This document shows, piece by piece, positions 1,520-27,504 of a DNA stretch of 42,662 nt. Numbering within the stretch: the stretch's first letter is position 1; each line of letters opens with the position of its first letter. The notes beneath the pieces are model-generated. The model was not told where the DNA came from, ran no database searches, and saw nothing but the letters and a program-made list of their open reading frames with translations. Source of the stretch: Dehalococcoidales bacterium (lineage in GTDB: Bacteria > Chloroflexota > Dehalococcoidia > Dehalococcoidales > RBG-16-60-22); the NCBI GenBank assembly GCA_030606585.1, contig JAUWGD010000001.1, forward strand, positions 1-42,662, given 5' to 3'. The translations under genes were made by a program, and so were the position numbers.

Positions 1520-2467
1520 TTACCAGTCCGGCGGGCCTACCTGTTTCTGTTTGTCATAAATGTCATTATAGATTATAGTCCCGAAATTCTTGACGATTTC
1601 CCAGCGCTTTTCATTCCGCGGCTCATCAGGGATAGCGCGGATAATAGCATTATGACGCGCGATATAGCCGTCCTTGAACTCAGGATGGGTGTGTATGAAG
1701 AGGTCATTATTCCTGATGCCCCGTACCACCCGCTCACCGGTCTCTATCGGGTCCATGATTACATCTTTCATGTCCATGAACGGCCGCCGGGGTGGAGCGC
1801 CTTTAGGGGGCGGAGGCATTTTTGGCGGCCAGGTTTCTCCCTCGTTCCTGAGATGGGCAGGCCGGTTCTCAAAAGAAGATTTACCCAGATTGGTCATCGT
1901 CGGCCCGGGAATCAGCACTGAAGCCCCGATATTCTTATCCTGAAGTTCCGTGGCGAGACATTCCATCATAGCGCATACAGCATATTTCGTCGTGCAGTAG
2001 ATAATAAATTTGTCTGCGGCAAGAAGGCCGCACGTCGAGGACGTGGCTACGATGTGGCCGCCCTCCCCGTGTTTCAGGATACGCGGTACAATCGTCATGA
2101 TGCTGTTAATGCAGCCTCCCACGTTGACGCCCATGCTGTAGTCCCAATCTTTATACGTCAATTTATCAATCGGGCCGCCGCCGGAGCCTACGCCGGCATT
2201 ACTGACCAGCACGTGTATCTTCCCGAAGACTTTTTCCGCTTCATCGGCGGCCTTAACATAAGCCTCTCGGTCGGTAACGTTCAGTTTTATCGGGTGGACA
2301 GGCTGTTTTTTTTCTTTAAAGTAGGCCATCGCCTCATCCAGGGCGTCCTGGCGCGAATCGGCGATAACCACCTTCATGCCGTATTTGGTACATGCCTTGG
2401 CAATTCCGAGTCCGATGCCGCTGGCGCCACCGGTGATAAAGGCTGTTTTTCCTTCCACATGTTCCAT
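1520..2467 (-). CDS. SDR-family NAD(P)-dependent oxidoreductase (module A)
   Basis: TGGASGIGLG Rossmann motif, NAG, and a YxxxK-type active-site region (YCTTKYAV). I start at the internal Met (MEHVEGKTAFITGG) because AGGAG lies 7 nt upstream and the longer track ORF overlaps the upstream gene. Paralog of 4410..5384. Confidence 0.85.
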   Translation of the reverse strand: MEHVEGKTAFITGGASGIGLGIAKACTKYGMKVVIADSRQDALDEAMAYFKEKKQPVHPIKLNVTDREAYVKAADEAEKVFGKIHVLVSNAGVGSGGGPIDKLTYKDWDYSMGVNVGGCINSIMTIVPRILKHGEGGHIVATSSTCGLLAADKFIIYCTTKYAVCAMMECLATELQDKNIGASVLIPGPTMTNLGKSSFENRPAHLRNEGETWPPKMPPPPKGAPPRRPFMDMKDVIMDPIETGERVVRGIRNNDLFIHTHPEFKDGYIARHNAIIRAIPDEPRNEKRWEIVKNFGTIIYNDIYDKQKQVGPPDW

Positions 2468-2510
2468 TTTTTCTACTCCTATTAACCACGCATTATTTAT
2501 TTGGTCGAGT

Positions 2511-4205
2511 CTAGTGGGAAATCCCGCAGGAACCGTCTTTGCAGACTTCTGCCACCGGCATCCGGAGCGGTTTTGCATCTTTCTTGATGCCGGCTTTAGG
2601 AATCCACGGGTCGATTACTGCCGTCTGGAAATAGGAAAAATCGGTAACAACCCACATCGGGTTCATTTCCCCGCCGGCGACGACGAAGTTCACCATCTCC
2701 GGGCGCTTGAAACGGAGATTCATCTCATTCACGAGCCACTCGCTGAGTTTCATGGGGTCATCGTAGCCTTCCTTCTTACAACTCTTGGCTACCAGCGGGT
2801 CGATGACGAACGTAAACGAGGCTCCGAAGGGACCGCTGATGCTTTTCACAACCTCCAGCATCCGCTGGATAGGGCCGGTGTTAAAGCCGAGGACAGTCCA
2901 ACCGCGGAAAAGACTGACCGTGCTCTCATCGCGTTTGAAACCCTTGCGCACGTGGAAGGGTTCCCAGACACTTAACTCCTCGTTTTCCGCGCAACACATG
3001 TTGTTGTAATTGATAGTGGTTCCGGTACTGGCCGTGAACGTGGCGCCGGGCCGGACATCCCCGAGGTTAATGCTCATCAGGGTCCAGGCACGGCCGATGA
3101 CGGAGTTGGCGTAATTGATCGGACTTAGGGCGCCGAGGCCGTAGTTCATGCCGATTTCGTCGCGGATGGGGCCGTTTACCACCATCATGCTCGCGAAAGA
3201 AGTCGTCGAACTGGGCATGGAAGGCCGTCCGGAAGCGCCTAATGCCAGGATAACCGGGAAATGCTCCGGTCTGGCGCCCGCCATGACGGCGTTCACCGCA
3301 ACCCTCTCCACTGTGTACTGGAGCCGTTCCTCGTGGGTAGTTACGGACATCATGCCGACGTATTCCTGGGGGCCGCGGTCGGTGCCGGTAAGCATCTCCG
3401 CCACGCGCTCTTCGGTCGGCAGGATGATGGGCAGGCCGTCCGTCCAGCCGCTTTCCAGGAAGAACCGGTGAAGGTCGGCCTCGGTGGCCGGTTCGAGCAG
3501 GCGCGGCCGCTCCGGTCTCTTCTCCGGTTTGTAATTCTTCTCGGTTTCCGTCAGCGGCTGGGTGAGGGCGAAGATAACCTCCTCCATGAGGGGTACGCCG
3601 GAAACAGGGTCGTTGCCCTCGATATAGCCATGCAACGTGTCCCGGGAAACCCAGCCGACAGGGTAAGGAGGAAAAGTCCAGCGGAGGTTCATGCCGTGAC
3701 TACGGCCGTCACGCTGCACGTAGTCCGTAAAACGGGCGGTGGCGATAGGGGCTGAAGGTACGCCATAGTCGTGTTCCATCGTCCGGGCAAACTCGGCGAT
3801 ACTCGCCGAACAGCCGTCTCAGCCGCCGACACCGAAGACAACGCCGTCACCATTTTCCTTGATTTCTTTCCAGAGTTCTGGCTCATCGGTGAACATGCTG
3901 GTCTTTTTATGGCGTAACTCGGTTTTGATAGCAGGTCGGTTTTGCGTGAACCAATCCTGAAGCTCCTCCATAAATTCCTTGCTGCCGGCAAATCCCGTAT
4001 TCACCAGGTAAACGGTCTTGCCTTCCAGGCTGTCAAGGCGCGGCGCCATTTTACGTTTCCCGAGGGCTTCAGCCGTGTCTCTCGGCTGGTTTTCGGGGTC
4101 GTGAATAGCGAACATTGGTGAATCAACGTTCAGCCGCCGTCCGAAGATACCGCTGGGCTGGCCTATGGGGTCCAGCACTGTGATTTTCGAATTATTTTTT
4201 GCCAT
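2511..4205 (-). CDS. predicted UxxC selenoprotein (about 564 aa): UGSC-like N-terminal domain fused through in-frame UGA (3821..3819) to a large conserved domain of unknown function
   Basis: Track ORFs 3819..4310(-) and 2511..3779(-) share a frame (42 nt from the UGA first base to the ATG first base). The 39 nt between them has no stop, and ATG 3779 has no RBS. The junction reads GVGG-U-DGCSASIAEFART-MEHDYGVP. A hairpin follows the UGA. The start is moved to ATG 4205 (AGGAG 7 nt upstream). The paralog 5429..7195 has TGA at the aligned position. Confidence 0.68.
3786..3815 (-). promoter_or_regulatory. SECIS-like hairpin downstream of UGA 3821..3819
   Basis: The mRNA reads UGA GAC GGCUGU-UCGGCGA-GUA-UCGCCGA-GUUUGCC. 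There is a perfect 7-bp GC-rich upper stem (3809..3803 / 3799..3793) with a small apical loop, extendable by two G-U pairs and GGC/GCC. It starts 3 nt after the UGA. Confidence 0.5.
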
Positions 4206-4409
4206 GTTTTTTCTCCTAACTGTTTTTACTATGGAAAAAAGATTGTTAAAGTTGATAGTTATCTTGCTCTTACGTGATATTCTATAGTACCTTATACAGT
4301 AAAAATCCACAACTGGAAGATATCGAGTCCATCTTTATGGAGTAATGTCAGAATTTGCATTAGATTGCCATTCATTTTACACTATTTATATAGTACGAAG
4401 GAGGGAATA

Positions 4410-5384
4410 ATGAAAGATTTCGCTGGTAAAATTTTATTTATCACCGGAGGGGCTTCCGGTGCCGGATTCGGTCAGGCAAAGGTGTTTTCAGAAGCAGGCT
4501 GCAAGGTTGTTATCGCGGATATTCGTCAGGACCACCTGGACGAGGCAATGGCGTATTTCCGGGATAAAAAGGCAGAAGTTCACGCGATACAACTGGATAT
4601 TACGGACCGCAAGGCATATGCGGCGGCTGCCGACGAGGTAGAGAAGGTATACGGGAGTCCGCCCCAGATGCTCTTTAATACTGCGGGCGTGAATGCCTTC
4701 GGTCCGGCTGAAGCCTCGACATTTGAAGATTATGACTGGGTTATGGGAGTTTGCCTTGGCGGCGTCGTCAACGGTATGGTGACATTCGTACCGCGCATGA
4801 TACAGGCCGATAAGGGCGGTTATATCGCCACGACTTCCTCGATGGGAGGTTTCATGGGAGGTTCCACGACCGCTCCCTACTCGGCTGCCAAAGCCGCGGT
4901 CAATAACCTCATGGAGAGTTACTTACAGGCGCTCAAGCCTTATGGTATCGGCGTATCCTGCCTGTGCCCGGGCGGTATCAAGTCAAATATCGCCGAAGCA
5001 TCATATACACGGCCAAAGCACCTGGAAAACACCGGGTATAACACCAATGAAAAAACAATCGAGTATATGCATTACCATTACTCTTTTGGGATAGACCCCG
5101 TCGAGCTGGCAAACATACTTAAGAAGGGGATTGAAAACGAGCAGTTCTTCATTATCCCGGTCCCTGACCCGGAAAAGATGCTGCAGGGTATTGTTGAGCG
5201 AATCGTTAATTATGCCACTCCCGAAGGGATGAAAAAACAGGAAGAGCTGATGAAGAAGCGCATGGAAGAAATGAGGAAACGCATGGGCGGTGATGATGGT
5301 CCCATGAAGGGCGCCGCCGAATCCGGATGGGGGAAAGCCAGGCAAGATTTAACCTGGATCAAAGAACGTAAGGGACCCTTTTAA
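4410..5384 (+). CDS. SDR-family NAD(P)-dependent oxidoreductase (module B)
   Basis: MKDFAGKILFITGGASGAGFG Rossmann motif and YSAAK active-site motif. GGAGG lies 6 nt upstream of ATG 4410. It shares DxRQDxLDEAMAYF(K/R)xKK with the module A SDR. Confidence 0.85.
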   Translation: MKDFAGKILFITGGASGAGFGQAKVFSEAGCKVVIADIRQDHLDEAMAYFRDKKAEVHAIQLDITDRKAYAAAADEVEKVYGSPPQMLFNTAGVNAFGPAEASTFEDYDWVMGVCLGGVVNGMVTFVPRMIQADKGGYIATTSSMGGFMGGSTTAPYSAAKAAVNNLMESYLQALKPYGIGVSCLCPGGIKSNIAEASYTRPKHLENTGYNTNEKTIEYMHYHYSFGIDPVELANILKKGIENEQFFIIPVPDPEKMLQGIVERIVNYATPEGMKKQEELMKKRMEEMRKRMGGDDGPMKGAAESGWGKARQDLTWIKERKGPF

Positions 5385-5428
5385 TCAAGGATGCAACTAA
5401 ACCCTGAACATTCGAATGGAGGAATATA

Positions 5429-7195
5429 ATGACAATTGAAGTACGTTTTTCAGTAATGAGTCCTGAAGCTGGAGTCCAGAAGAGTGCAGGTGGACCTCCG
5501 CCGGGTATGGGCGGGCCTCCACCGTCTTCAGCTTCTTTTGCCAAGCGGTTGGATACACTGGAGAACAAGACCGTGTACCTGGTGGATATCGGTTTCGGCG
5601 GAGGCTATGAATTCATGCTGCAATTGCAGAAATGGTTTGCCGATCACATGCCGTCCGTCACCACGATACCAAAACGGAAACCGGGTATGGTGTTCATGGA
5701 TGATAATAATGACCTCTGGGAGGAAATTAAAGTAAAAGGCCATGCCGTTGTCCTTGGCGTAGCCGGCTGACCGGGCTGTATTGCAGCGGTCGCTGCAGGT
5801 AGTACGAATCTTGAACAGAACTATGGTCTCCCGGTTGCTCCTGTCTCAGCATACACGATGGAAAGCGCTGCAAAGAGTAACCCGAGAGCCGCTTCTTTAC
5901 CTTTCATATATACGCCGTTTCCGGTGATAGGTTTGTCTCCTGAAGTCCTCGATAGTTATATTGTAGGCAATGACCCGGATACCGGTAAACCTGTCATCGA
6001 TGAGATATTTGACGTATTGACCAAACCGGTAAGCAAAAAGAAATCGCCGCCTGAGTCTCCTGTACCTGAAAAAGCCGCCCCTCCACAGGTACTCCTGGAA
6101 CCGGATACCGAAGATAATTTACAGCGTCTGTTTTATGAAAAAGGATGGACGGACGGACTGCCCATCATTCTACCCACCGAGGAACGGGTGCAGAAAATGC
6201 TCGCCGGCACCAGCGCTTCTCCGGACGAGATAGTCGCCGAATCATTCTCGTTTGCGACCAGAGAAGTTATTAAGTACACGGTTTCCAGCATCGCGGTTAT
6301 CGCGGTCATGGCCGGCGCCAGGCCGGAACATTTTCCGGTTATCCTGGCTGTTGCCTCTACCAGGCAATCGTCGCTTATGCCCTCAACAACAGCCTTCGGA
6401 ACAATGCTTCTGGTGAACGGGCCGATTCGTAATGAGATCGGTATGAACTGTGGTATCGGCGCGTTCAGTCCGGTGAATCTGGCGAATTCCGTTATCGGAA
6501 GAGCCTGGACATTGATGAGCATTTGCTGGGGGTATGCCAAGCCTAAAGAGACCCTGTGGAGTGCCCAGGGGAATAATTTTATTTACAATAATATGTGCGT
6601 CGGCGAGAACGAAGAGAGCAGCGTCTGGGAGCCTTTCCATGTGGGAAAAGGTTTCAAGTCTGACGAGAGTGTCGTCAGTATCTTCCGGGGATGGGGTTTT
6701 TTCAACAGTCCCGGAACCGCTGCCCACCGGTCGGTAATTGAGGAATTAAATATCCAGCTGGCGGCAATGCCCCCGATGAATTCCATGGCGACGATAATCA
6801 TGGACCCGCTGGTGGCCAGGAATCTAAAGGATAATGAAGGGTTTACAACCAAGCAGGACTTCTGCCGCGCGTTATCCGAGAACATCAAGATGCCGGCGGG
6901 ACAGTACTGGAAAACCGATCATATCGACATGCTGGTGGCATCCCAGGCATACAAGGGAGTGGAGCCTTATGCTTCCTGGAAAAAGCTCCCGGATGATGCG
7001 CTGATAGCTCCCTATCATAACCCGGACAATATCAATATCGTCGTCGTGGGCGGGGAGACAAGTCCCTTATGGAAAACTACGGACTACGGCTGCTCAGGCA
7101 GTGCATCTATCGACAAGTGGAGGGCGAATAAATCCGATGATGAATGCGCTGACGGAACGTGCGGGCTTCCGGATGAACCGGCTGATTATGATTAG
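5429..7195 (+). CDS. predicted UxxC selenoprotein (about 588 aa), paralog of 2511..4205; in-frame UGA at 5768..5770
   Basis: Track ORFs 5429..5770 and 5858..7195 are in the same frame (5858-5768=90). The intervening 87 nt has no stop, and ATG 5858 has no RBS. The junction reads GVAG-U-PGCIAAVAAGSTNLEQNYGLPVAPVSAYT-MESA. GGAGG precedes ATG 5429. Confidence 0.72.
5782..5797 (+). promoter_or_regulatory. SECIS-like hairpin 11 nt downstream of UGA 5768..5770
   Basis: UGCAGC-GGUC-GCUGCA forms a perfect 6-bp stem with a GGUC apical loop. The 11-nt spacing and the G/U-containing loop recall the minimal E. coli fdhF SECIS. Confidence 0.55.
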
Positions 7196-7201
7196 ATTCG
7201 T

Positions 7202-7226
7202 CACGACCTGATTATCGTGTTTTTGT
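7202..7226 (+). terminator. weak candidate intrinsic terminator after the module B selenoprotein gene
   Basis: CACGA-cctgatta-TCGTG followed by TTTTTGTTATT, 7 nt after the stop codon. The stem is only 5 bp. Confidence 0.3.
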
Positions 7227-7491
7227 TATTCAGCATCTATACATTGATAACTGGCAGTTATTGACGTACTCAGTAATGCATTCAGATTTCAGGGAATTTT
7301 ACAGTTTATGAGGCTAACTTAATCCGGAGATTTTAGCAAAATCCGCCGAAGCAGCTGGCCTTGAATTGTTATGTCAACTTACGAGCCGGCTTTAGGTTAC
7401 CACCTATCGTACAGTACCGCCTTACCGTGAAACACGGAATCGGCTCCGGCTCCGTAATATAGCCAATTTGAAAGTAATAATTCGTCGACTA

Positions 7492-8421: not shown

Positions 8422-9324
8422 CTAGCGGGACGAACTAACAAGTTCGGCAGCCTCTAAAATATCAGGCACGATATTTTCATTGCCTACCGCCATGATATGC
8501 ACGCCGTGACACAGCTTTTCTTCCCTGATGGTTTTGATGAATCTGGCGGCAATCTCAATGCCTTTCTGAAGTCCCTTCCCCTTTTCCACAGCCGCCAGCT
8601 CATCAATAAGAGATTGGGCAACAATTATACCGGGGACGTTATTATTCATGTACCTGGCCATGCCGGCAGATGAGAGGACAATGATACCGGCCAGGATTTT
8701 AACGTCGAATTGAGATGCATATTGCATAAACCGACGAAAGCTTGCCAGGTCGAATATGCCCTGGGTCTGAAAAAATTGTGCCCCGGCAGCGACCTTCTTA
8801 TCGAATTTTATGAGTTGCGGCTCGATGAAGTCTGCTTCTGGATGGACGGAGGTGCCGATGCAAAATTTCGGGGCAGCCCCTAATTCGTTACCTCCCATGT
8901 CGATTCCGGATTCCAGGGTTCTTATCATCTTTAATAATTGCACGGAATCCAGGTCAAAAACAGGCTTGGCATCTTTGTGGTCGCCTACATCAATCGAATC
9001 CCCCGTAAGAGAAAGTACATTCTTAATATCTCTGGAATAAGCCAGAAGAAGCTCGGACTGCAGCGCCAGACGGTTTCGGTCACGACAAGTCATTTGCAGG
9101 ATTGGCTCACCACCAAGTTCTCTCACCAGCAGGCAGCCCCCTATCGAAGGAAAACGCATCACAGAACTTTGATGGTCCGTGATGTTTATGGCGTCAACCT
9201 TATCCTTGAGTAGCTTGATATGGTGAACCACTTCCGAGACGTCCACACTCTTGGGAGGTCCTATCTCTGTCGTTATAATAAAGTCATTTGAGCTGAGTTT
9301 CTCTTCAAATAATGAATTAGCCAT
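8422..9324 (-). CDS. metF: methylenetetrahydrofolate reductase, acetogen/MetF type
   Basis: About 300 aa. The ...ITTEIGPPK...AINITD...MTCRDRNR...LSLTGD motif pattern is typical of MTHFR. It overlaps the upstream metV-like gene by 8 nt. Confidence 0.85.
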   Translation of the reverse strand: MANSLFEEKLSSNDFIITTEIGPPKSVDVSEVVHHIKLLKDKVDAINITDHQSSVMRFPSIGGCLLVRELGGEPILQMTCRDRNRLALQSELLLAYSRDIKNVLSLTGDSIDVGDHKDAKPVFDLDSVQLLKMIRTLESGIDMGGNELGAAPKFCIGTSVHPEADFIEPQLIKFDKKVAAGAQFFQTQGIFDLASFRRFMQYASQFDVKILAGIIVLSSAGMARYMNNNVPGIIVAQSLIDELAAVEKGKGLQKGIEIAARFIKTIREEKLCHGVHIMAVGNENIVPDILEAAELVSSSR

Positions 9325-10000
9325 TGCTTTCTCCCGTAACAGTCTCTGCTTTACTCATAATCCTTCTCGGCCTGGGAATCGCCCGGAAATTCCGGGGAGG
9401 GTAATACCGGCGCATCTTATCCAGCTGCTGTAGTCTTTCCAAACGCTGATAAATTAAAATCCAGGCGCAGTCCATATCTTTATTGGCCTCGCATTTTCCG
9501 TTCTTGACGCCGGCACAGGGGCCATTGAGTATGCCTTTGGTGCACCTTGTAATAGGACAGATGCCGCCGGTGTCTTCCAATCGGCACTCACCGCAGGCGG
9601 CGCAACGTTCATCCCAGACTCCTGACTCTTTGGTCATGCCCATGAAAGAGGTATTCACACCCGGCAACACCGGCATATCCGGGAGATATTCCGCTATAGC
9701 CTGCACCCCGATGCCGCAACCGAGAGACAGAATTACGTCCACGTCAGCCGTTTTTTCGCCAAGCGCCTCCAGGAATTCAGGGTCACACTGCCTTTTCACA
9801 GTATGTTCGGAAAAGGTATGAGCCCCTTCTCCGCTCCTCGCCTGTGCCAGCTGTAACGCATTATGGAGAAAGGAGACCTCACGCTCGCCGCCGGCATCGC
9901 AAACCGTCATGCAGGTGCCACAACCGAGTATTAATACCCGTTCATAAGGGACAATCATTCGTATGATATCTTCCAGAGGTTTTTGTTCCGCGACTATCAA
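9317..10000 (-). CDS. metV: MTHFR C-terminal-domain FeS/zinc protein (MetV-like)
   Basis: Cys-rich, with CGTC...CAACGEC...CPITRCTKGILNGPCAGVKNGKCE (the NGPC(G/A)G signature of the MTHFR_C family). It overlaps its neighbours at both ends. Confidence 0.75.
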   Translation of the reverse strand: MIVAEQKPLEDIIRMIVPYERVLILGCGTCMTVCDAGGEREVSFLHNALQLAQARSGEGAHTFSEHTVKRQCDPEFLEALGEKTADVDVILSLGCGIGVQAIAEYLPDMPVLPGVNTSFMGMTKESGVWDERCAACGECRLEDTGGICPITRCTKGILNGPCAGVKNGKCEANKDMDCAWILIYQRLERLQQLDKMRRYYPPRNFRAIPRPRRIMSKAETVTGESNG

Positions 10001-12105
10001 CTTTTCACCTCCCCCTTTATTACTGAGGCTAAACGGAGAGAACCTATCTGTTCGACGAACTTGTCCAGTTCCTCGACAGGGTCTTCCGTGGTGGTGCCGA
10101 GGGCGAAAACCTGGAGTCGTTCGGGCTCGAGACCGATTGACCCCAGTACCTTTCTAACCTTCGCCACGCGTTGTTGTACCCAGTAGGTGGTATTTTCCCG
10201 GGCACATTGTTCGCCGCAACCGGCGATGAAGACTCCTTCGGCACCTGTCTCAAAGGCGGATAGTATGTGAGATGCCTCTACCTTGGCTACGCAGAGAACC
10301 GGTACGATACTGACGCCCGCCCCGGCTCCCCTCCATAGATCGGCCAGAGTGCCGGTACCGAAGAGTCCGTACTGGCAGCAGAAACCAATGATAAGCGGCT
10401 TGTTTTTCAGTTCGGCAGCCGATTTTATAGCGTGACTAAGCTCATCATTCACCTGGCGTCGGTCGAACGGCTTTCTTAAGACTATCGCCTTGGCAGGGCA
10501 CTCGGCCACGCATATACCGCAAGCCTGGCACTGGTCAGCAGGTATGCAGATGGCACCGCTGGCGTCCAGATGAGGCACGTGATAAGGACATACTCTCAGG
10601 CAGGTAAGGCAGGTGGCACACTTATCTTGAAACAGGATTTCCACACCAACGCCGCACCGCAGACACCTTCGGGCTTCATTGATAGCCTGTTCCCAGCTAT
10701 ATACGAGTTCTATCGGCTCGAAGTCTCTTGCCCTGACTTCGCTTGCCAGACTCGGCGGCTCAGCTCGCTCTATCTTCTTTATCATCTCTATTGTTTCCGG
10801 CAAAAGGTCTCCGCTTAACTTTTCCTTAGCCTCTTTGACGGGCAGTGGGTACCGGTGCTGGAGGTAATCAACGATGCGGAGCGCCGCGAGTCTGCCGGCC
10901 GCTAACGCCTCGGTTACCGTAGCCGGTCCGGTAACGGCGTCACCCCCGGCAAAAACCCCGGCTCTGTTGGTGGTAAGTGTATTCGGGTCGACCTGAATCG
11001 TGCTACCCTTGCCAATGCGGACCCCAAAATCGTCGGGGGTCTGAGGCGCCTGTCCAATAGCTGCGATGAGGGTATCAATTTGCTCGCTGAATTTGCTGCC
11101 CTTGACCGGCACGGGCCTCTGCCGGCCACTCTCGTCAGGCTTACCGAGCTTCATTTTAATGCAGGTTACATTCAACCTCTTGTTTTCTCTCTTGACCTTG
11201 GTGGGTGTTACCAGGTACCTTATGTCTATTCCTTCTTCCAGTGCTTGCTCAATCTCTGCGGGGTCGGCAGGCATCTCCGCGCGGGTACGGCGGTAAAGGA
11301 TGCTTACCTTTTTTACGCCCAGACGGATTGCCGTACGCGCCGCATCAATGGCTACATTACCCCCTCCCACCACGGCCACCTTTCTTCCCAGCGATGGCTT
11401 CAATCCGAGGTTAACCTCGCGGAGAAAGGTGGCTCCGTCTATTACCCCGGGACTTTCCTCTCCCTCTATCCCCATTCTGAGGCTTTGATGGGCACCGATA
11501 GTAATAAAAATAGCCTTATAGCCCAGCTCAAACAGCAGGTCCAGGGATACTACCCGGGTATCCGTCCTGATTTCAACGCCCATGCGTGTTAATCTCTTGA
11601 CCTCAATATCCAAGACTTCGCGCGGGAGCCGGTACTGGGGAATGCCGACGCGGAGCATACCTCCCAGTTCCGAGTGAGCTTCGAGGACCGTTACAGGATA
11701 GCCGAATTTTTTCAGGTAGTAAGCACAGGCTAAGCCGGCCGGCCCAGAGCCTACGATGGCAACCTTCTCTGCATGCGTGGTTTCGGCTTCAGCCTGGACC
11801 ATCCTGTCGCCGCCGAATTCCACGGCGAACCTCTTCAGCGAACGGATGGCGATGGGTTTATCTACCTGGGAACGCCGGCAGGCATCTTCACAGGGATGAG
11901 TGCAAACGTAGGCGCAGATAGATGGGAACGGATTGCCCGTCCTGATGACCTGTAAAGCCTCCATAATCCTGCCCTGAGAAACCAGACCTACGTATTCTCT
12001 GATATCCATATGCAGGGGGCAGGCATCCTGGCAGGGAGGTACCAGGCTATGGTCCGGAACGTTCTCCGTGCGATTTACAGGGTAGCTCGTATTAGCAACA
12101 TTCAT
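9997..12105 (-). CDS. NfnB/GltD-like FAD/NAD(P) flavoprotein fused to a 2x[4Fe-4S] ferredoxin domain and an MvhD domain
   Basis: N-terminal Cys-rich GltD-type domain (PPCQDACP...CTHPCEDAC), a VAIVGSGPAGLACAYYL dinucleotide fold and a second GGGNVAIDAART fold. These are followed by CLRCG...CLTCLRVCP and CQACGICVAECP, then the MvhD-like segment IIGFCCQYG...VPVLCVAKV...VFIAGCGEQC. Confidence 0.8.
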   Translation of the reverse strand: MNVANTSYPVNRTENVPDHSLVPPCQDACPLHMDIREYVGLVSQGRIMEALQVIRTGNPFPSICAYVCTHPCEDACRRSQVDKPIAIRSLKRFAVEFGGDRMVQAEAETTHAEKVAIVGSGPAGLACAYYLKKFGYPVTVLEAHSELGGMLRVGIPQYRLPREVLDIEVKRLTRMGVEIRTDTRVVSLDLLFELGYKAIFITIGAHQSLRMGIEGEESPGVIDGATFLREVNLGLKPSLGRKVAVVGGGNVAIDAARTAIRLGVKKVSILYRRTRAEMPADPAEIEQALEEGIDIRYLVTPTKVKRENKRLNVTCIKMKLGKPDESGRQRPVPVKGSKFSEQIDTLIAAIGQAPQTPDDFGVRIGKGSTIQVDPNTLTTNRAGVFAGGDAVTGPATVTEALAAGRLAALRIVDYLQHRYPLPVKEAKEKLSGDLLPETIEMIKKIERAEPPSLASEVRARDFEPIELVYSWEQAINEARRCLRCGVGVEILFQDKCATCLTCLRVCPYHVPHLDASGAICIPADQCQACGICVAECPAKAIVLRKPFDRRQVNDELSHAIKSAAELKNKPLIIGFCCQYGLFGTGTLADLWRGAGAGVSIVPVLCVAKVEASHILSAFETGAEGVFIAGCGEQCARENTTYWVQQRVAKVRKVLGSIGLEPERLQVFALGTTTEDPVEELDKFVEQIGSLRLASVIKGEVKS

Positions 12106-17413: not shown

Positions 17414-18295
17414 ATGAAATTGAACCGTAGAACTTTCTTGAAAGTCTCGGCAGGGACAACCGGCCTTATATTGTTAAATAAACCGAAAAAATCTTCCGCG
17501 AGTGATACCCCAAATAAATCGGGTAAAGCGGTACTGGTAGATACCTCAAAGTGTGTAGGCTGCTGGTGGTGCTATGCCGCCTGTAAGCATGCCCACAACT
17601 TACCCGAAACAATCAGACCTGATAAAGAACATCCGCCGGAGCTTGATTCTAATATCTTGACGACCCTGAGTACCATGAAGAATGGCGACGAATGGCTCTA
17701 CGCCAAGCGTCAGTGCATGCACTGCGAGTACCCGGCCTGTGTGACCGCCTGCCCGGTGGGCGCTCTACAGAAGACACCGGAAGGACCGGTTATCTATGAC
17801 AGTAGTAAATGCTTCGGGTGCCGTTACTGCATGGTGGTCTGCCCGTTTGGCGTGCCCGACTTTGAATGGGAAGACCCTACCCCATGGATATGCAAGTGTG
17901 ATTTTTGTACCGACCGCCTGGCAGCGGGACTGGAACCGGCCTGTGTGGATGCCTGCACCACGGGTGCTCTTAAGTTAGGTAATCGAGAGGAACTCATCGC
18001 CGAGGCCAGAGAACGCATCGCGGCCGAACCGGGTAAGTACATAGACCACATCTACGGAGAGAAAGAGGCGGGTGGCACTTCGTGGCTGTATCTCTCCACT
18101 ATTCCCCTGGAAAAGATAGGATTTCCTTCTCTGGAATCCAAGCCGGTGACCCTTGACGCTGAACGCGCCATGGGTGCCGTTCCGCCGGTGCTCCTAGGTG
18201 TGGCGGCAGCTATGTCCAGTATCTTCTGGCTCGTTAAACGACGTAATCAAATGAGTCAGGAAAAACCCGGAGATAAGAAGGAGGGCAGAAAATGA
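17414..18295 (+). CDS. Tat-exported four-cluster [4Fe-4S] protein with C-terminal TM anchor (HybA/NrfC/DmsB-like)
   Basis: Twin-arginine signal MKLNRRTFLKVSAGTTGLILL. Four Cys groups (CVGCWWCYAAC, CMHCEYPACVTACP, CFGCRYCMVVCP, CDFC...CVDAC). Hydrophobic C-terminal helix VPPVLLGVAAAMSSIFWLV. Confidence 0.85.
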   Translation: MKLNRRTFLKVSAGTTGLILLNKPKKSSASDTPNKSGKAVLVDTSKCVGCWWCYAACKHAHNLPETIRPDKEHPPELDSNILTTLSTMKNGDEWLYAKRQCMHCEYPACVTACPVGALQKTPEGPVIYDSSKCFGCRYCMVVCPFGVPDFEWEDPTPWICKCDFCTDRLAAGLEPACVDACTTGALKLGNREELIAEARERIAAEPGKYIDHIYGEKEAGGTSWLYLSTIPLEKIGFPSLESKPVTLDAERAMGAVPPVLLGVAAAMSSIFWLVKRRNQMSQEKPGDKKEGRK

Positions 18296-19113
18296 CCTTA
18301 GCCGTGCTGTACGACGCTAATAAATGCATCGGCTGCCGGGGATGTCAGGTAGCCTGCAAGCAGTGGAATGAGAATGACGAGTTCATACCCACTGAGGAAA
18401 ACGGGGTGCAGTCGAAGAACTGGGGCAGCAATGAAAATCCGCCTCAATTGTCCGCCCGTACCTGGACGAAGATACGCTTTACGGAACTGGATTATAACGG
18501 TAAATTTCACTGGGTCTTTACCAAGCTCCAGTGCATGCACTGCGAGCACCCGGCCTGTGTGACAGCCTGCCCGGTGGGCGCTTTAGAGAAGACACCGGAA
18601 GGACCGGTTATCTATGACGATACCAAATGCTTCGGGTGCCGTTACTGCATGTTGGCCTGTCCCTTCGGGATACCTTCCTTCGAGTGGGACAGCCCCCTGC
18701 CCTGGATTCGTAAGTGCACCTTCTGCGCGGACCGTTTAGGCGCGGGATTGGAACCAGCCTGTGTTCAGACCTGCCCTACCAAAGCGCTTAAATTGGGGGA
18801 GCGGGAAGAATTAATAGCAGAAGCCCGGGAGCGTATCAACACTTCTCCCGATAAATATATAAATCACATCTACGGAGAGAACGAGGTGGGCGGCACATCA
18901 TGGCTGTATCTCTCTCCAGTGCCCTTTGAAATGATAGGGCTGCCGACTCTCGGGTCCGAGCCGGTGACCCTTGACGCCGAACGCGCTATGGGTGCCGTTC
19001 CGCCGGTCCTCATGGGGGTGGCGGCGGCTATGTCCGGTATTTACTGGGTCATCAAACGACGTGAGCGTATCAGCCGTGAAAGAACCGAGGAGAAAGAAGA
19101 GGTAACGAAATGA
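18292..19113 (+). CDS. four-cluster [4Fe-4S] protein, paralog of 17414..18295 but without a signal peptide; C-terminal TM anchor retained
   Basis: Starts MTLAVLYDANKCIGCRGCQVAC with no Tat motif. It has the same four Cys groups and the VPPVLMGVAAAMSGIYWVI helix. ATGA overlaps occur at both ends. Confidence 0.85.
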   Translation: MTLAVLYDANKCIGCRGCQVACKQWNENDEFIPTEENGVQSKNWGSNENPPQLSARTWTKIRFTELDYNGKFHWVFTKLQCMHCEHPACVTACPVGALEKTPEGPVIYDDTKCFGCRYCMLACPFGIPSFEWDSPLPWIRKCTFCADRLGAGLEPACVQTCPTKALKLGEREELIAEARERINTSPDKYINHIYGENEVGGTSWLYLSPVPFEMIGLPTLGSEPVTLDAERAMGAVPPVLMGVAAAMSGIYWVIKRRERISRERTEEKEEVTK

Positions 19114-20276
19114 TGCCCAAAAAACATTCATTTCCTGTCGGCACCTTTATTCTGAGCATCCTGGTTGTCGTTGGTCTGGCGGTAGTGATTTATAGATACA
19201 TCTACGGACTGGGTGCCATCAGTAACCTGAGTGACGGCCGTGCCTGGGGCCTGTGGATAAGTTTCGACCTTTATTGCGGCGTGGCACTGGCGGCGGGCGG
19301 CTTCACCCTGGCTGGCGCCGTTTATATCTTTAACCTTAAAAAGTATCGTTCCGTGGTGAGGCCGGCTATCCTGACCGCCTTCCTGGGCTATACGCTGGTA
19401 ATCCTGGCTCTGCTGGTTGACCTGGGACATCCCTGGTACATCTGGCATATCATCATTAACTGGAACGTTCATTCGCCGCTGTTTGAAGTAGGTATGTGCG
19501 TCATGTTTTATACGGCAGTGCTGGCCCTCGAGTTTAGCCCGGCGGTATTTGAAGGCTTAAGTAAAAGCAACCTCCCGGTCGTCAGGCACATCAACTGGCA
19601 TTTCCCCTGGCGTGTCATCCGGGCAATTCAGATACCCCTGGTAATCGCCGGCGTTGTCCTTTCCACACTGCATCAGTCCTCACTGGGGTCGATGCTGCTG
19701 ATGATGCCGGAAACATTACACGAACTATGGTACACACCAATCCTGCCGATACTGTTCCTCATTTCAGCCGTAGCCGTAGGTCCGGCCATGGTCATCTTCG
19801 AGTCGACCCTCAGCACCAGAGTCTTCGGCCATAAGTTAGACATTGATGTGCTAAGCGGTTTAGCCAGGGTTATTCCCTACATCCTGGGGCTTTACCTTCT
19901 ATTGAAAGTGATTGAACTGACGGCGGTGGGAGAACTGGGACTCATCTTTACCGCATACCCGCAGAACCTGCTGTGGTGGGGTGAAATTATCATCGGGGTT
20001 ATAGTGCCCATCATCCTCTTCTCGATGTCCGATGTGAGGCAAAACCGGAGCGCCGTATTCTGGACTTCAGTTCTGATCATCATTGGGCTGGTAATTAATC
20101 GCTTCAACGTGAGCATGCTGGCGCTGGGCATGCGCCCGGGTTATTTTTACTTCCCTCACTGGATGGAGTTTGCCGTCTCGGTGGGTCTGGTTGCCGACGC
20201 CTTACTCGTCATCTGGCTGGCCCACCGGTTCCTGCCGATTGCCCACCAAGAGCAAATAGTGGAGGCTGAAATTTAA
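19110..20276 (+). CDS. NrfD/HybB/PsrC-family integral membrane protein
   Basis: 388 aa with 8 or more hydrophobic segments. The motif GLGAISNLSDGRAWGLWISFDLYCGVALAAGGF is typical of the NrfD/HybB/DsrP family. Confidence 0.85.
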   Translation: MMPKKHSFPVGTFILSILVVVGLAVVIYRYIYGLGAISNLSDGRAWGLWISFDLYCGVALAAGGFTLAGAVYIFNLKKYRSVVRPAILTAFLGYTLVILALLVDLGHPWYIWHIIINWNVHSPLFEVGMCVMFYTAVLALEFSPAVFEGLSKSNLPVVRHINWHFPWRVIRAIQIPLVIAGVVLSTLHQSSLGSMLLMMPETLHELWYTPILPILFLISAVAVGPAMVIFESTLSTRVFGHKLDIDVLSGLARVIPYILGLYLLLKVIELTAVGELGLIFTAYPQNLLWWGEIIIGVIVPIILFSMSDVRQNRSAVFWTSVLIIIGLVINRFNVSMLALGMRPGYFYFPHWMEFAVSVGLVADALLVIWLAHRFLPIAHQEQIVEAEI

Positions 20277-26118: not shown

Positions 26119-27504
26119 TCATAACCCGTACGGCGGTAGGTCAATTTCCCACCATGCTTCGGGGTCTTTCCCATAACCGGGGTCGGTATCCAGCTTTCTG
26201 AACATTCCATTGAATACCGATGTGGCAGATAATATTTGCCTCACTAAATTGTGTATATGTATAAACGATTTATCTAGCTTAGTGAAGGGGCAGGCAGCCA
26301 GGCAGATGCCGCAATCGTGTCCTCCTATCCTCAGCCAATGTGAGAAACAGTTAGGGGCTTTCTCGTAGTACGTCTTGACGCCGGGGTTATTCCAAGGCCC
26401 TTGTATCTCCCACGATGGTTCAGTTTCCATACTGAGGGCATTACTCGGACAGACCTCGGCGCATTTCTTGCAGGTACGGCAAAAGCGGAATATACCGGCA
26501 TCTATCGGCTTGGTGGGAGCCAGAGGTAAATCGGTAATCACCTTGTATACCCGCACCAATGGGCCCCAATACGGAGAAATCATCCTGTTCAAACGGCTTA
26601 ACTCGCCCAACCCGGCCAGCACGCCGAAACCAGGGCTATTACCCGAGGTACCCATGTTGCCATCAGCCAGGCACTGATAGCCAAGTCTGCTTATAAACTG
26701 CTGGAGGCGAAGCTGGACTGAGGTACCCTCGGAATAGGCCAGCGAAGAGGCAGCCGTGGCCAGAGCCGCCGGTGCTGTGGCCAGGGATAGTGGTGACATC
26801 CGGATGGTATAGACAATCATCCATTTCGCTTTATAGGGTATCACCTTCTTCTTATCCGTCTCATACGCCTTGTCCACATCCTCAAACTCCCACTTCCTGC
26901 CGTCCCAACCATCAAATTCGTAGATCAGTTTGCGGGTATTCTCATCGAGTTCTACCACGCCAACAGAATCGGCCCCATAAAGCTTAGCTGCTGCCCTGAC
27001 CATTCGTGTATTTTCCTCGGGTGTGCCCTCATAACGAGGGTAGTCAAGGTCGTCGGGTATGCCCGCCATGCTGAAGGGAACCTTAAGGCCGGGACCGAGG
27101 AAGGCATGCTCCATAGTTAAGAGTGATGTTAGCCATCCGCCGGCGACCAGTGCCTTTTCCCTCAGCGTATACCCCGACTCGTTTTCAAGTATAGATTTTG
27201 TAGCTGCCTCCCCAGCTTCCCCCCCCAACTTCATAGCATTATCGGGGCCGACGGCCTGGGCAAAACCATTGACAAACATGATATTACTGGAGTCAAAGCG
27301 CTTCATCTGGCTCCAGTCAATCTCCACGGTAGGTTTATCGACCTCCTTTATCCACCATGGCAGTTTCCGCTCCGCTACTGGTGATGCCTTTATCTCGTCA
27401 AGGTCACGGTATTGCGAAGAGCCTGAGCCACCAGCATCAGTGTTTCCCTCCAATCCCAATGTCTTCATAAAGCTTCTCTTACTCCAGGTAGTGTGATACT
27501 TCAC
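26119..27504 (-). CDS. rdhA: reductive dehalogenase catalytic subunit homolog
   Basis: Dehalococcoides-type N-terminus (SKRSFMKTLGL...LPWWIKEVDKPTVEIDW) and C-terminal CRTCKKCAEVCP and C...CGICLAACP FeS motifs. GTG start with AGGGGGG 7 nt upstream. Confidence 0.9.
   Translation of the reverse strand: MKYHTTWSKRSFMKTLGLEGNTDAGGSGSSQYRDLDEIKASPVAERKLPWWIKEVDKPTVEIDWSQMKRFDSSNIMFVNGFAQAVGPDNAMKLGGEAGEAATKSILENESGYTLREKALVAGGWLTSLLTMEHAFLGPGLKVPFSMAGIPDDLDYPRYEGTPEENTRMVRAAAKLYGADSVGVVELDENTRKLIYEFDGWDGRKWEFEDVDKAYETDKKKVIPYKAKWMIVYTIRMSPLSLATAPAALATAASSLAYSEGTSVQLRLQQFISRLGYQCLADGNMGTSGNSPGFGVLAGLGELSRLNRMISPYWGPLVRVYKVITDLPLAPTKPIDAGIFRFCRTCKKCAEVCPSNALSMETEPSWEIQGPWNNPGVKTYYEKAPNCFSHWLRIGGHDCGICLAACPFTKLDKSFIHIHNLVRQILSATSVFNGMFRKLDTDPGYGKDPEAWWEIDLPPYGL

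What the first reader, a model, noticed from the sequence alone, without database searches (positions are those of the whole stretch)
5429..7195. In-frame UGA plus SECIS-like hairpin fuses two called ORFs into one large UxxC selenoprotein (module B)
ORF 5429..5770 stops at TGA 5768..5770, and ORF 5858..7195 lies in the same frame. The 87 nt between them has no stop codon, and ATG 5858 has no Shine-Dalgarno. That stretch translates to PGCIAAVAAGSTNLEQNYGLPVAPVSAYT. This aligns residue-for-residue with the sequence after the equivalent TGA in the paralog (DGCSASIAEFARTMEHDYGVPSAPIATARFT). So the supposed intergenic DNA is under protein-level conservation. Eleven nt after the UGA sits a perfect GC-rich hairpin, UGCAGC-GGUC-GCUGCA. 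Its spacing and G/U apical loop recall the minimal E. coli fdhF SECIS. The resulting G-U-P-G-C is a UxxC redox motif. The upstream domain (KTVYLVDIGFGG...FM..LQ.WF...VVLGVAGU) recalls the UGSC-type (seleno)protein family, here fused to a 445-aa domain I cannot place. Standard gene callers would annotate two unrelated hypothetical proteins.
Basis: partly seen in the sequence, partly recalled or inferred. Interest (0 to 1): 0.85.

Follow-up and report, generated by a model that had tools for sequence, protein, structure and literature searches.

The report
Split selenoprotein gene, UGSC family fusion
Two neighbouring "genes" are really one 588-residue selenoprotein whose UGA codon is read as selenocysteine; it belongs to a known but uncharacterised selenoprotein family (UGSC) that gene callers routinely cut in two.

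Summary
ORF 5429..5770 ends at TGA 5768..5770. The next 87 nt are open and in frame with ORF 5858..7195. A 7-bp hairpin with a GGUC loop sits 5781..5798. The selenocysteine reading is strongly supported:

- The Pfam UGSC domain (PF24696) matches straight across the TGA.
- All 79 homologous loci with an aligned start, from at least six phyla, keep TGA at this codon with conserved protein on both sides.
- More distant full-length homologues are single ORFs with Cys-x-x-Cys at the same place.
- The hairpin is kept at the same spacing, with compensatory changes and restricted synonymous codons.

A paralogue on the minus strand (4205..2511, TGA 3821..3819) has the same build.

This is not a new kind of thing. 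UGSC selenoproteins have been known since 2007-2008, a UGSC fusion to an unknown domain was reported then, and NCBI already names the truncated halves "UGSC family (seleno)protein".

What remains open is function. The roughly 345-residue C-terminal domain has no Pfam, NCBIfam or convincing PDB relative. It is widespread: 3,729 cluster representatives matched. In Dehalococcoidales and one distant lineage it sits next to short-chain dehydrogenase genes. It often ends in a flexible C-x-D-G-x-C-G tail.

The parts
5429..7195 (+). Module B: one coding sequence of 588 codons (UGA read as Sec at codon 114), stop TAG 7193..7195
   Evidence: The Pfam UGSC match spans the TGA. 79 of 79 homologous loci are open through the TGA.
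5418..5422 (+). Shine-Dalgarno GGAGG, 6 nt before ATG 5429. ATG 5858 has none.
   Evidence: read directly from the sequence.
5768..5770 (+). Selenocysteine codon UGA, in the motif G-U-P-G-C (UxxC)
   Evidence: TGA in 79 of 79 loci. Cys at this column in full-length homologues.
5781..5798 (+). SECIS-type hairpin: 7-bp stem (5781-5787 with 5792-5798) and loop GGUC 5788..5791, which begins 17 nt after the UGA
   Evidence: Folding. Covariation: 70 cells changed on both sides against 32.3 +/- 3.5 in shuffles, 0 of 500 shuffles as high. Restricted synonymous codons. Same loop and spacing with a different stem in L085.
5531..5950 (+). UGSC domain (residues 35-174 of the fused protein), alpha/beta, with Sec at the end of a beta-strand
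   Evidence: PF24696, 32.6 bits against cut-off 25. AF2 model of the Cys homologue P0135, pLDDT 89.
6089..7123 (+). Uncharacterised C-terminal domain of about 345 residues (WTDGLPIILPTEERV ... VNGPIR.EIGMN ... ENEE ... SIDKWR)
   Evidence: No Pfam or NCBIfam match. No PDB sequence match. AF2 pLDDT 91.3. Best Foldseek PDB hit only E = 1.6e-3, TM 0.2. 3,729 cluster representatives with E <= 1e-3.
7145..7174 (+). C-terminal tail motif C-A-D-G-T-C-G-L-P-D (a Cys pair on a flexible arm)
   Evidence: Found in roughly 60% of the Sec-type loci with a readable C-terminus. pLDDT below 50. Absent from the Cys-type and Cys-less full-length forms examined.
4365..5384 (+). Short-chain dehydrogenase/reductase gene directly upstream of module B, a likely partner
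   Evidence: PF00106, E = 1.7e-40. An orthologue lies directly upstream in nearly all Dehalococcoidales loci and in the distant loci L085 and L086.
2511..4205 (-). Module A: paralogous fused selenoprotein of 564 codons, motif G-U-D-G-C, tail VCKDGSCGISH
   Evidence: PF24696 at 69.8 bits across the TGA. Orthologues L080 and L081 keep the TGA.
3819..3821 (-). Selenocysteine codon UGA of module A
3792..3810 (-). SECIS-type hairpin of module A: 8-bp stem and loop GUA, which begins 16 nt after the UGA
   Evidence: z = -5.0. Codons +4 to +6 and +8 are invariant at synonymous sites in all 10 sequences of this class; +7 varies only in its amino acid, I or V.
1520..2578 (-). Short-chain dehydrogenase/reductase gene directly downstream of module A
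   Evidence: PF00106, E = 3.3e-45. An sdrA-like gene lies 21-36 nt downstream in L080 and L081.

Best explanation
Positions 5429..7195 are one gene. The ribosome starts at ATG 5429. At UGA 5768..5770 it inserts selenocysteine, directed by the hairpin 5781..5798, which would bind the Sec-specific elongation factor SelB. Translation then continues to TAG 7195.

The product is a 588-residue, two-domain selenoprotein:
- an N-terminal UGSC-family alpha/beta domain carrying a U-P-G-C (UxxC) redox centre;
- a linker;
- a conserved domain of about 345 residues with unknown function;
- a flexible C-terminal tail with a Cys pair.

Shown: single-gene status, family membership, conservation of the UGA, Cys replacement in homologues, and a conserved, covarying hairpin.

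Inferred (about 0.4 likely in outline): the UxxC cycles between selenol/thiol and selenenylsulfide, and passes reducing equivalents to or from a substrate held by the C-terminal domain. On this reading the protein works with the adjacent NAD(P)-dependent short-chain dehydrogenase, and the C-x-D-G-x-C-G tail acts as a swinging dithiol relay.

The paralogue at 4205..2511 works the same way.
For: - PF24696 matches residues 35-174 (module B) and 41-191 (module A) of the fused proteins, across Sec-114 in module B and the equivalent Sec in module A.
- A genome-collection scan seeded only with peptides downstream of the TGA returned 80 loci. These came from MAGs labelled Dehalococcoidales, Acidobacteriota/Acidiferrales, Desulfatiglans/Desulfobacteraceae, Spirochaetes, Actinomycetes and Baltobacteraceae.
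- All 79 loci with an aligned start have TGA at the codon, with conserved residues on both sides and 31 to 347 open codons upstream.
- Full-length single-ORF homologues of 544-569 aa carry CxxC at the same column.
- Hairpin: 78.5% of cells paired against 66.3% in shuffles. 70 cells changed on both sides against 32.3 +/- 3.5, with 0 of 500 shuffles as high. The named register beats all slid registers.
- Val+7 uses only GTC/GTT and Ala+8 only GCT/GCC, whereas the same amino acids upstream of the UGA use all four codons.
- A distant homologue (L085) has GCCGGA-GGUC-UCCGGC at the same spacing, encoding different amino acids.
- The loop starts 16-17 nt after the UGA and contains G-U. From memory, this fits the bSECISearch model (Zhang and Gladyshev 2005) and the E. 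coli fdhF SECIS.
- Dehalococcoidia are documented Sec users (PMC4918011). BSepDB lists Dehalococcoidia genomes with 46-49 selenoproteins (PMC13326102).
- UGSC is a recognised selenoprotein family (PMC1976440, PMC2398784).
- SDR linkage.
Against: - No selA, selB, selC or selD in the window, and no tRNA-Sec in the 81 related loci scanned (L001-L081). Sec competence of this particular genome is therefore unverified.
- No Rfam SECIS family matches.
- Resampling synonymous codons gives only a modest stability excess: mean z = -0.88, and winB alone z = -0.1. Part of the hairpin follows from the Ala-Ala-Val-Ala-Ala peptide itself.
- NF041046 scores only 25.9 and 44.6 bits against a cut-off of 125.
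- The functional part rests on context and analogy only. SDR neighbours are absent from the Acidobacteriota and Desulfobacterota loci. Many full-length superfamily members lack both Cys residues, so the C-terminal domain does not strictly need the redox motif.
Confidence: 0.92

Rival explanations
1. These are two real genes. UGA 5768 terminates a 113-aa protein, and the 445-aa protein is started separately at ATG 5858 or another start, perhaps by translational coupling.
For: Gene callers produce exactly this split. All 120 closest database entries begin after the TGA. TGA is used as a stop elsewhere in the window (5 of 37 ORFs).
Against: - There is no Shine-Dalgarno before 5858.
- The called starts of homologues vary (407-479 aa), while the 29 'intergenic' codons are conserved as protein in 79 loci.
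- The UGSC domain model needs residues on both sides of the TGA.
- Cys-type homologues are single ORFs.
Confidence: 0.03
2. The UGA is read through, but not as selenocysteine. It could be read by near-cognate Trp or Cys insertion, or through a reassigned UGA codon.
For: Sec machinery was not found in the window, and no Rfam SECIS match was obtained.
Against: - UGA is not reassigned here. It ends 5 of 37 long ORFs, and only the two paralogous modules have a well-supported internal in-frame UGA: a scan for ORFs bridged by one TGA recovered module A, and its other candidates do not coincide with the window's Pfam-supported genes.
- The position is Cys in the homologues and part of a UxxC/CxxC motif.
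- A conserved, covarying hairpin sits at canonical SECIS spacing.
- The family is an established selenoprotein family.
Confidence: 0.04
3. The gene is a pseudogene, or the stop is a sequencing or assembly error in an otherwise Cys-encoding gene.
For: Nothing specific. It is a generic possibility for any in-frame stop in a metagenome-derived contig.
Against: The same TGA occurs in 79 independent assemblies and in the paralogue within this window. There is no other frame disruption, and protein-level conservation is strong on both sides.
Confidence: 0.01

Closest known systems
UGSC-containing selenoprotein family (Pfam PF24696; NCBIfam NF041046; Zhang and Gladyshev 2007/2008; example ABI76733.1 of Hyphomonas neptunium)
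   Same: - The same domain, with a Pfam match above threshold that spans the Sec codon.
- Sec as the first residue of a UxxC motif after a beta-strand.
- A SECIS hairpin immediately downstream.
- Function unknown, presumed redox.
   Different: - The motif is U-P-G-C or U-D-G-C, not U-G-S-C.
- The protein is 588 or 564 aa, with a further domain of about 345 aa, rather than the roughly 150-aa stand-alone protein that NF041046 models. Scores are 25.9 and 44.6 bits against a cut-off of 125.
'UGSC/Unknown_1 fusion' reported from Global Ocean Sampling reads (Zhang and Gladyshev 2008, PMC2398784, Fig. S1A)
   Same: [quoted passage not shown]
   Different: It could not be established whether Unknown_1 is the same domain. 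The figure is held only as an image, and the stored sequence dataset is truncated.
E. coli fdhF SECIS / bacterial SECIS consensus (bSECISearch model; recalled from memory)
   Same: A hairpin inside the coding sequence just 3' of the UGA. The apical loop GGUC begins 17 nt after the UGA (about 18 nt in fdhF) and has G-U in the loop.
   Different: The stem is a short perfect helix with no bulged U. No SelB-binding data exist. No Rfam model covers it.
Substrate-reducing clostridial selenoproteins GrdB and PrdB (UxxC after a beta-strand in an alpha/beta domain; recalled from memory)
   Same: The local pattern is similar: beta-strand, then U-x-x-C, then a helix, then '...G-[IV]-P-x-[VA]'. The idea of a selenol acting on a bound substrate is also shared.
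   Different: No detectable sequence relationship. Pfam GRDB (PF07355) does not appear even at E <= 10. There are no Grd/Prd partner genes nearby. This is an analogy only.
C-terminal redox arms (thioredoxin reductase GCUG/CxxxxC tails, DsrC)
   Same: A disordered C-terminal extension carrying two Cys residues next to a main redox centre.
   Different: The motif here is C-x-D-G-x-C-G-[LI]-P. It is present in only about 60% of Sec-type members, and its redox role is untested.

Membership tests
Bacterial selenoprotein gene (Sec-decoded UGA) | In-frame UGA conserved among orthologues, with protein conservation on both sides | tested here: met
   79 of 79 loci have TGA, with GV[AG]G before it and [PDE]-[GA]-C after it.
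Bacterial selenoprotein gene (Sec-decoded UGA) | Homologues with Cys at the aligned position | tested here: met
   CxxC in P0135, P0141, P0144, P0150, P0179, P0274-P0279, P0352-P0355 and P0372.
Bacterial selenoprotein gene (Sec-decoded UGA) | SECIS stem-loop just 3' of the UGA, with the apical loop about 16-37 nt downstream and a G in its first two positions | tested here: met
   Loops GGUC and GUA start 17 and 16 nt after the UGA. Covariation and synonymous-site constraint support the stem. The criterion itself is recalled from memory.
Bacterial selenoprotein gene (Sec-decoded UGA) | selA, selB, selC and selD present in the same genome | not testable with these tools
   None in the 42.6-kb window. 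No tRNA-Sec in the related loci scanned. Only taxon-level literature is available (PMC4918011, PMC13326102).
Bacterial selenoprotein gene (Sec-decoded UGA) | Selenium demonstrably incorporated (75Se labelling or mass spectrometry) | not testable with these tools
   This needs an experiment.
UGSC family (Pfam PF24696) | Score above the Pfam gathering threshold | tested here: met
   32.6 bits (module B) and 69.8 bits (module A) against 25.
UGSC family (seleno)protein, NCBIfam NF041046 equivalog | Score above the curated cut-off of 125 bits, for a small stand-alone protein of about 147 aa | tested here: not met
   25.9 and 44.6 bits. The protein is a 588-aa fusion. NCBI nevertheless names truncated relatives 'UGSC family (seleno)protein'.
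UGSC family | U/C-G-S-C motif | tested here: inconclusive
   The UxxC spacing and position are kept, but the residues are U-P-G-C and U-D-G-C.
GrdB/PrdB reductase selenoproteins (PF07355) | Sequence match to the GRDB family | tested here: not met
   No hit even at E <= 10.
Class I (Fe-S) fumarate hydratase fold, for the C-terminal domain | Convincing structural superposition and conserved Cys ligands | tested here: not met
   Best Foldseek hit has E = 1.6e-3, TM 0.21 and rmsd 17 A. No nearly invariant Cys in the domain.

The most novel reading that the evidence does not exclude
The fused UGSC proteins are a large, cross-phylum family of two-domain selenoenzymes that is systematically mis-annotated. 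Their roughly 345-residue catalytic domain would have a fold not yet represented in the PDB. They would carry out an undescribed selenium-dependent redox reaction together with short-chain dehydrogenases, using a C-x-D-G-x-C-G swinging arm to relay electrons to the U-x-x-C centre.
Probability: 0.25. Interest if true: 0.6.

Novelty: new member of a known kind. Interest (0 to 1): 0.35.

Why it matters
Practical value: this window shows a recurring annotation error. Thousands of database entries for this family are N-terminally truncated halves that lack the catalytic selenocysteine, and some already carry the family name. Correct gene models would add two selenoproteins to this genome and many to Dehalococcoidia, Acidobacteriota, Actinomycetota and Desulfobacterota selenoproteomes.

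Scientific value: the family pairs one of the most abundant environmental selenoprotein domains of unknown function with a large conserved domain that has no family or structural assignment. The conserved neighbourhood with short-chain dehydrogenases, and the existence of natural CxxC versions that can be expressed without Sec machinery, give a concrete route to finding what UGSC proteins do.

It does not change what is known about Sec decoding.

Tried and rejected
- **Rfam.** The whole window at gathering threshold, and 3600..6000 at E <= 10, gave no SECIS family, only noise.
- **Thermodynamic stability of the wider region.** The 63-nt and 101-nt contexts are not distinguishable from shuffles. 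Synonymous-codon resampling gave only mean z = -0.88. I therefore relied on covariation and codon restriction instead.
- **A simple perfect-stem hairpin finder.** It picked competing stems and was discarded.
- **PDB sequence searches.** Neither the single protein nor the family profile gave anything.
- **Foldseek against PDB.** The full-length Cys homologue model hit only generic Rossmann-like folds for the N-terminal domain. The window's C-terminal domain gave class I fumarate hydratase and 'Toblerone'-fold hits at TM about 0.2, which I rejected as unconvincing.
- **Pfam at E <= 10.** The N-terminal domain and the C-terminal domain, scanned separately, showed no GRDB or other relationship.
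- **'Unknown_1' of Zhang and Gladyshev 2008.** Comparison failed because the figure is an image and the dataset is cut.
- **Sec machinery and tRNA-Sec.** Searches of the window and of the related loci L001-L081 found none.
- **Neighbourhoods outside Chloroflexota and Actinomycetota.** They gave no consistent partner: PEP-utilising enzymes, MMPL, lipocalin, response regulators.
Full report
**1. The observation**

Reading 5300..7300 and translating 5429..7195 confirms every stated coordinate.
- The ORF starts at ATG 5429, preceded by GGAGG at 5418..5422, and runs to TGA 5768..5770.
- The next 87 nt (5771..5857) contain no stop and are in frame with ATG 5858 (429 nt apart).
- That ATG has no Shine-Dalgarno in the preceding 25 nt.
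- The frame then stays open to TAG 7193..7195, so the whole read is 588 codons.
- The peptide across the gap is PGCIAAVAAGSTNLEQNYGLPVAPVSAYT, as reported.

Eleven nt after the UGA lies UGCAGC-GGUC-GCUGCA (5782..5797). A U-G pair extends it to 7 bp (5781..5798).

The paralogue is real. It lies on the minus strand, from ATG 4205 through TGA 3821..3819 to the stop at 2511. It has G-U-D-G-C and its own hairpin UUCGGCGA-GUA-UCGCCGAG at 3810..3792.

**2. Is the UGA decoded?**

Four independent lines say yes.

(a) Domain continuity. Pfam PF24696 (UGSC) matches residues 35-174 of fused module B and 41-191 of module A. Scores are 32.6 and 69.8 bits against a threshold of 25. The domain model needs sequence on both sides of the stop.

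(b) Conservation of the codon. I scanned one genome per species of GTDB using peptide patterns taken only from downstream of the TGA, so the scan is blind to the codon itself. It returned 80 loci from MAGs labelled Dehalococcoidales/Dehalococcoidia, Acidobacteriota (Acidiferrales, Terriglobia), Desulfatiglans/Desulfobacteraceae, Spirochaetes, Actinomycetes and Baltobacteraceae. In all 79 with an aligned start, the codon is TGA. It is flanked by ...LWxEIKxxGxAxxxGV[AG]G and [PDE]-[GA]-C..., and 31 to 347 further open codons lie upstream.

(c) Cys homologues. An exhaustive HMMER search of 1.84 billion cluster representatives, using the post-TGA translation, found 3,729 relatives. Among them are single-ORF proteins of 544-569 aa in which the same column is Cys within CxxC: SCPGC, HCSTC, GCSTC and HCSSC. 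A second word-index search, seeded with one of these (P0135), again returned mostly 441-456-aa entries that begin just after the Sec position. One of them (P0377, locus L085) was confirmed to carry an in-frame TGA in G-V-G-T-U-P-G-C.

(d) The RNA element. I aligned 73 distinct sequences without gaps (A1).
- The stem at columns 26-32 with 37-43 is paired in 78.5% of cells, against 66.3% in shuffles.
- It has 70 cells changed on both sides, against 32.3 +/- 3.5, with 0 of 500 shuffles as high. It beats every slid register.
- Pair 30-39 switches A-U (38 sequences) to G-C (24). Pair 27-42 uses U-A, G-C, G-U and A-U.
- Codon usage is restricted exactly where the stem needs it. Val+7 is only GTC/GTT and Ala+8 only GCT/GCC, while Val-3 and Ala-2 use all four codons.
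- In the module-A class, codons +4 to +6 and +8 show no synonymous variation in 10 sequences; +7 varies only in its amino acid, I or V.
- The distant L085 has GCCGGA-GGUC-UCCGGC at the same spacing while encoding different amino acids.

The loop begins 16-17 nt after the UGA and contains G-U. To my recollection, this fits the bacterial SECIS model of Zhang and Gladyshev (2005) and the E. coli fdhF element.

Caveats on the RNA evidence:
- Overall folding energy of the region is unremarkable.
- Synonymous resampling gives only mean z = -0.88, and -0.1 for module B itself. Part of the stem is a by-product of the Ala-Ala-Val-Ala-Ala peptide.
- Rfam has no matching family.

**3. Sec competence of the host**

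The window has no selA/B/C/D. Its only tRNA is tRNA-Arg. No tRNA-Sec lies in the related loci scanned (L001-L081). This criterion is therefore untested for this genome.

At taxon level, Dehalogenimonas has selC, Sec-synthesis genes, selB and selenoproteins (PMC4918011). BSepDB lists Dehalococcoidia genomes with 46-49 selenoprotein genes (PMC13326102).

UGA is not reassigned here. It ends 5 of 37 long ORFs. A scan for ORFs bridged by one TGA recovered module A, and its other candidates do not coincide with the window's Pfam-supported genes. Module B was identified by direct reading.

**4. What the protein is**

- The N-terminal part is a UGSC domain. An AlphaFold2 model of the Cys homologue P0135 (pLDDT 89, pTM 0.90) shows an alpha/beta domain, with the CxxC at the end of strand 94-100 and the start of helix 105-118.
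- After a linker comes a conserved domain of about 345 residues. Its nearly invariant motifs are W-T-D-x-L-P-x-x-x-P-T-E, V-A-V-N-A-V-M-A-G-A, V-N-G-P-I-R-x-E-x-G-M-N, A-N-x-x-I-G-R-A, E-N-E-E-x-S-x-W-x-P-x-H and S-x-D-x-W-R.
- This domain has no Pfam or NCBIfam match and no PDB sequence relative, even with a family profile.
- A confident model of the window's own domain (pLDDT 91.3) finds nothing convincing in the PDB. The best hit is class I fumarate hydratase at E = 1.6e-3, TM 0.21 and rmsd 17 A.
- No Cys is conserved in this domain.
- Many full-length relatives have lost both Cys residues of the N-terminal motif. The fusion is therefore old, and the redox centre is a feature of only some subfamilies.

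**5. Context and a mechanistic proposal**

Each module sits beside a short-chain dehydrogenase gene: 4365..5384 upstream of module B, and 2578..1520 downstream of module A.
- The sdrB orthologue is directly upstream in nearly all Dehalococcoidales loci. An sdrA-like gene lies directly downstream in the module-A orthologues L080 and L081.
- A distant Sec-type locus (L085/L086) has two SDR genes upstream. L086 also has a thioredoxin-reductase-like flavoprotein downstream.
- A Cys-type member lies beside an NmrA/3-beta-HSD-type reductase and a polyketide synthase.
- The link is not universal. Acidobacteriota and Eremiobacterota loci instead carry tandem arrays of three or four paralogues, with small signal-peptide ORFs between them and PEP-utilising enzyme genes nearby.

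Roughly 60% of the Sec-type loci with a readable C-terminus, including both window copies, end in a tail C-x-D-G-x-C-G-[LI]-P. It is modelled as disordered. It was absent from the Cys-type and Cys-less full-length forms I examined.

My best guess is an oxidoreductase in which three things happen:
- The U-x-x-C cycles through a selenenylsulfide.
- The tail dithiol relays electrons.
- The C-terminal domain binds the substrate, with the SDR doing the adjacent NAD(P)-dependent step.

This is inference, at about 0.4 probability in outline.

**6. Comparison with what is known**

- UGSC-containing proteins were reported as selenoproteins of unknown function in 2007 (PMC1976440).
- They were among the most abundant selenoprotein families in Global Ocean Sampling data: 255 Sec forms against 21 Cys forms, UxxC motif (PMC2398784).
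- The same paper mentions a 'UGSC/Unknown_1' fusion. I could not verify whether Unknown_1 is this domain.
- Pfam and NCBIfam both have UGSC models.
- NCBI names truncated relatives 'UGSC family (seleno)protein' (HSW57649.1, MEE8413432.1, HEY7692435.1).

The window genes pass the Pfam threshold but not the NF041046 equivalog cut-off. Their motif is UPGC/UDGC. I therefore file them as fused, divergent members of the UGSC superfamily, not as equivalogs of the small UGSC protein.

**7. Verdict**

It is a new member of a known kind, and an instance of a known annotation failure. The residual interest lies in the uncharacterised, widespread C-terminal domain, the SDR linkage and the Cys-pair tail. 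Interest 0.35.

Noticed in passing
window 7145..7174 (+), and about 2514..2546 (-): Both paralogues end in a C-x-D-G-x-C-G-[LI]-P/S tail after the conserved ...D-x-W-R end of the large domain. The tail is predicted disordered. It is present in roughly 60% of Sec-type loci across several phyla, and was not seen in the Cys-type or Cys-less full-length relatives examined. Some very close relatives of module B (L003, L005, L006, L008) lack it.
   Followed up: partly
L050, L052, L054, L063, L065, L069, L070, L072 (Acidobacteriota and Eremiobacterota loci): These loci carry tandem arrays of several paralogous copies of the fused selenoprotein gene; L050 and L054, whose ORFs were read, have three or four. 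In those two loci, small ORFs of about 140 aa with signal-peptide-like N-termini (MNRRKMLALLGASPALAA...) and no Pfam match sit between the copies. Split PEP-utilising enzyme genes (PPDK_N plus mobile domain) lie upstream.
   Followed up: partly
L085 9838..10287, L086 9354..10280: A thioredoxin-reductase-like flavoprotein gene (Pyr_redox_2) lies directly downstream of a distant Sec-type member that also has two SDR genes upstream. It is a candidate reductant for the UxxC centre.
   Followed up: no
window 8422..12105 (-): MetF-like MTHFR (8422..9324), a MetV-like protein with the MTHFR C-terminal domain (9317..10000), and a 702-aa HdrA-like flavoprotein with a fused MvhD domain (9997..12105). 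Together they resemble the acetogen-type electron-bifurcating methylene-THF reductase module. The HdrA-like protein is a single ORF, so it is a Cys form rather than a Sec form.
   Followed up: no
window 26119..27504 (-): A reductive dehalogenase homologue (PF13486 plus 4Fe-4S domains). No obvious rdhB anchor gene was examined.
   Followed up: no
window 17414..20276 (+): Two 4Fe-4S dicluster proteins followed by an NrfD/PsrC-type membrane subunit. No catalytic molybdopterin subunit is in the same run.
   Followed up: no
window 40983..42278 (-): A 431-aa ORF next to leuD/leuB/leuA-like genes is not LeuC. It has an N-terminal membrane helix, a long coiled coil and a C-terminal region that looks like an Mrr-type restriction endonuclease. 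Pfam gave no hit at E <= 0.001.
   Followed up: partly
window 5486..5530 (+): The N-terminus of module B has a Gly/Pro-rich low-complexity stretch (GGPPPGMGGPPPSS) before the UGSC domain. The paralogue does not share it.
   Followed up: no
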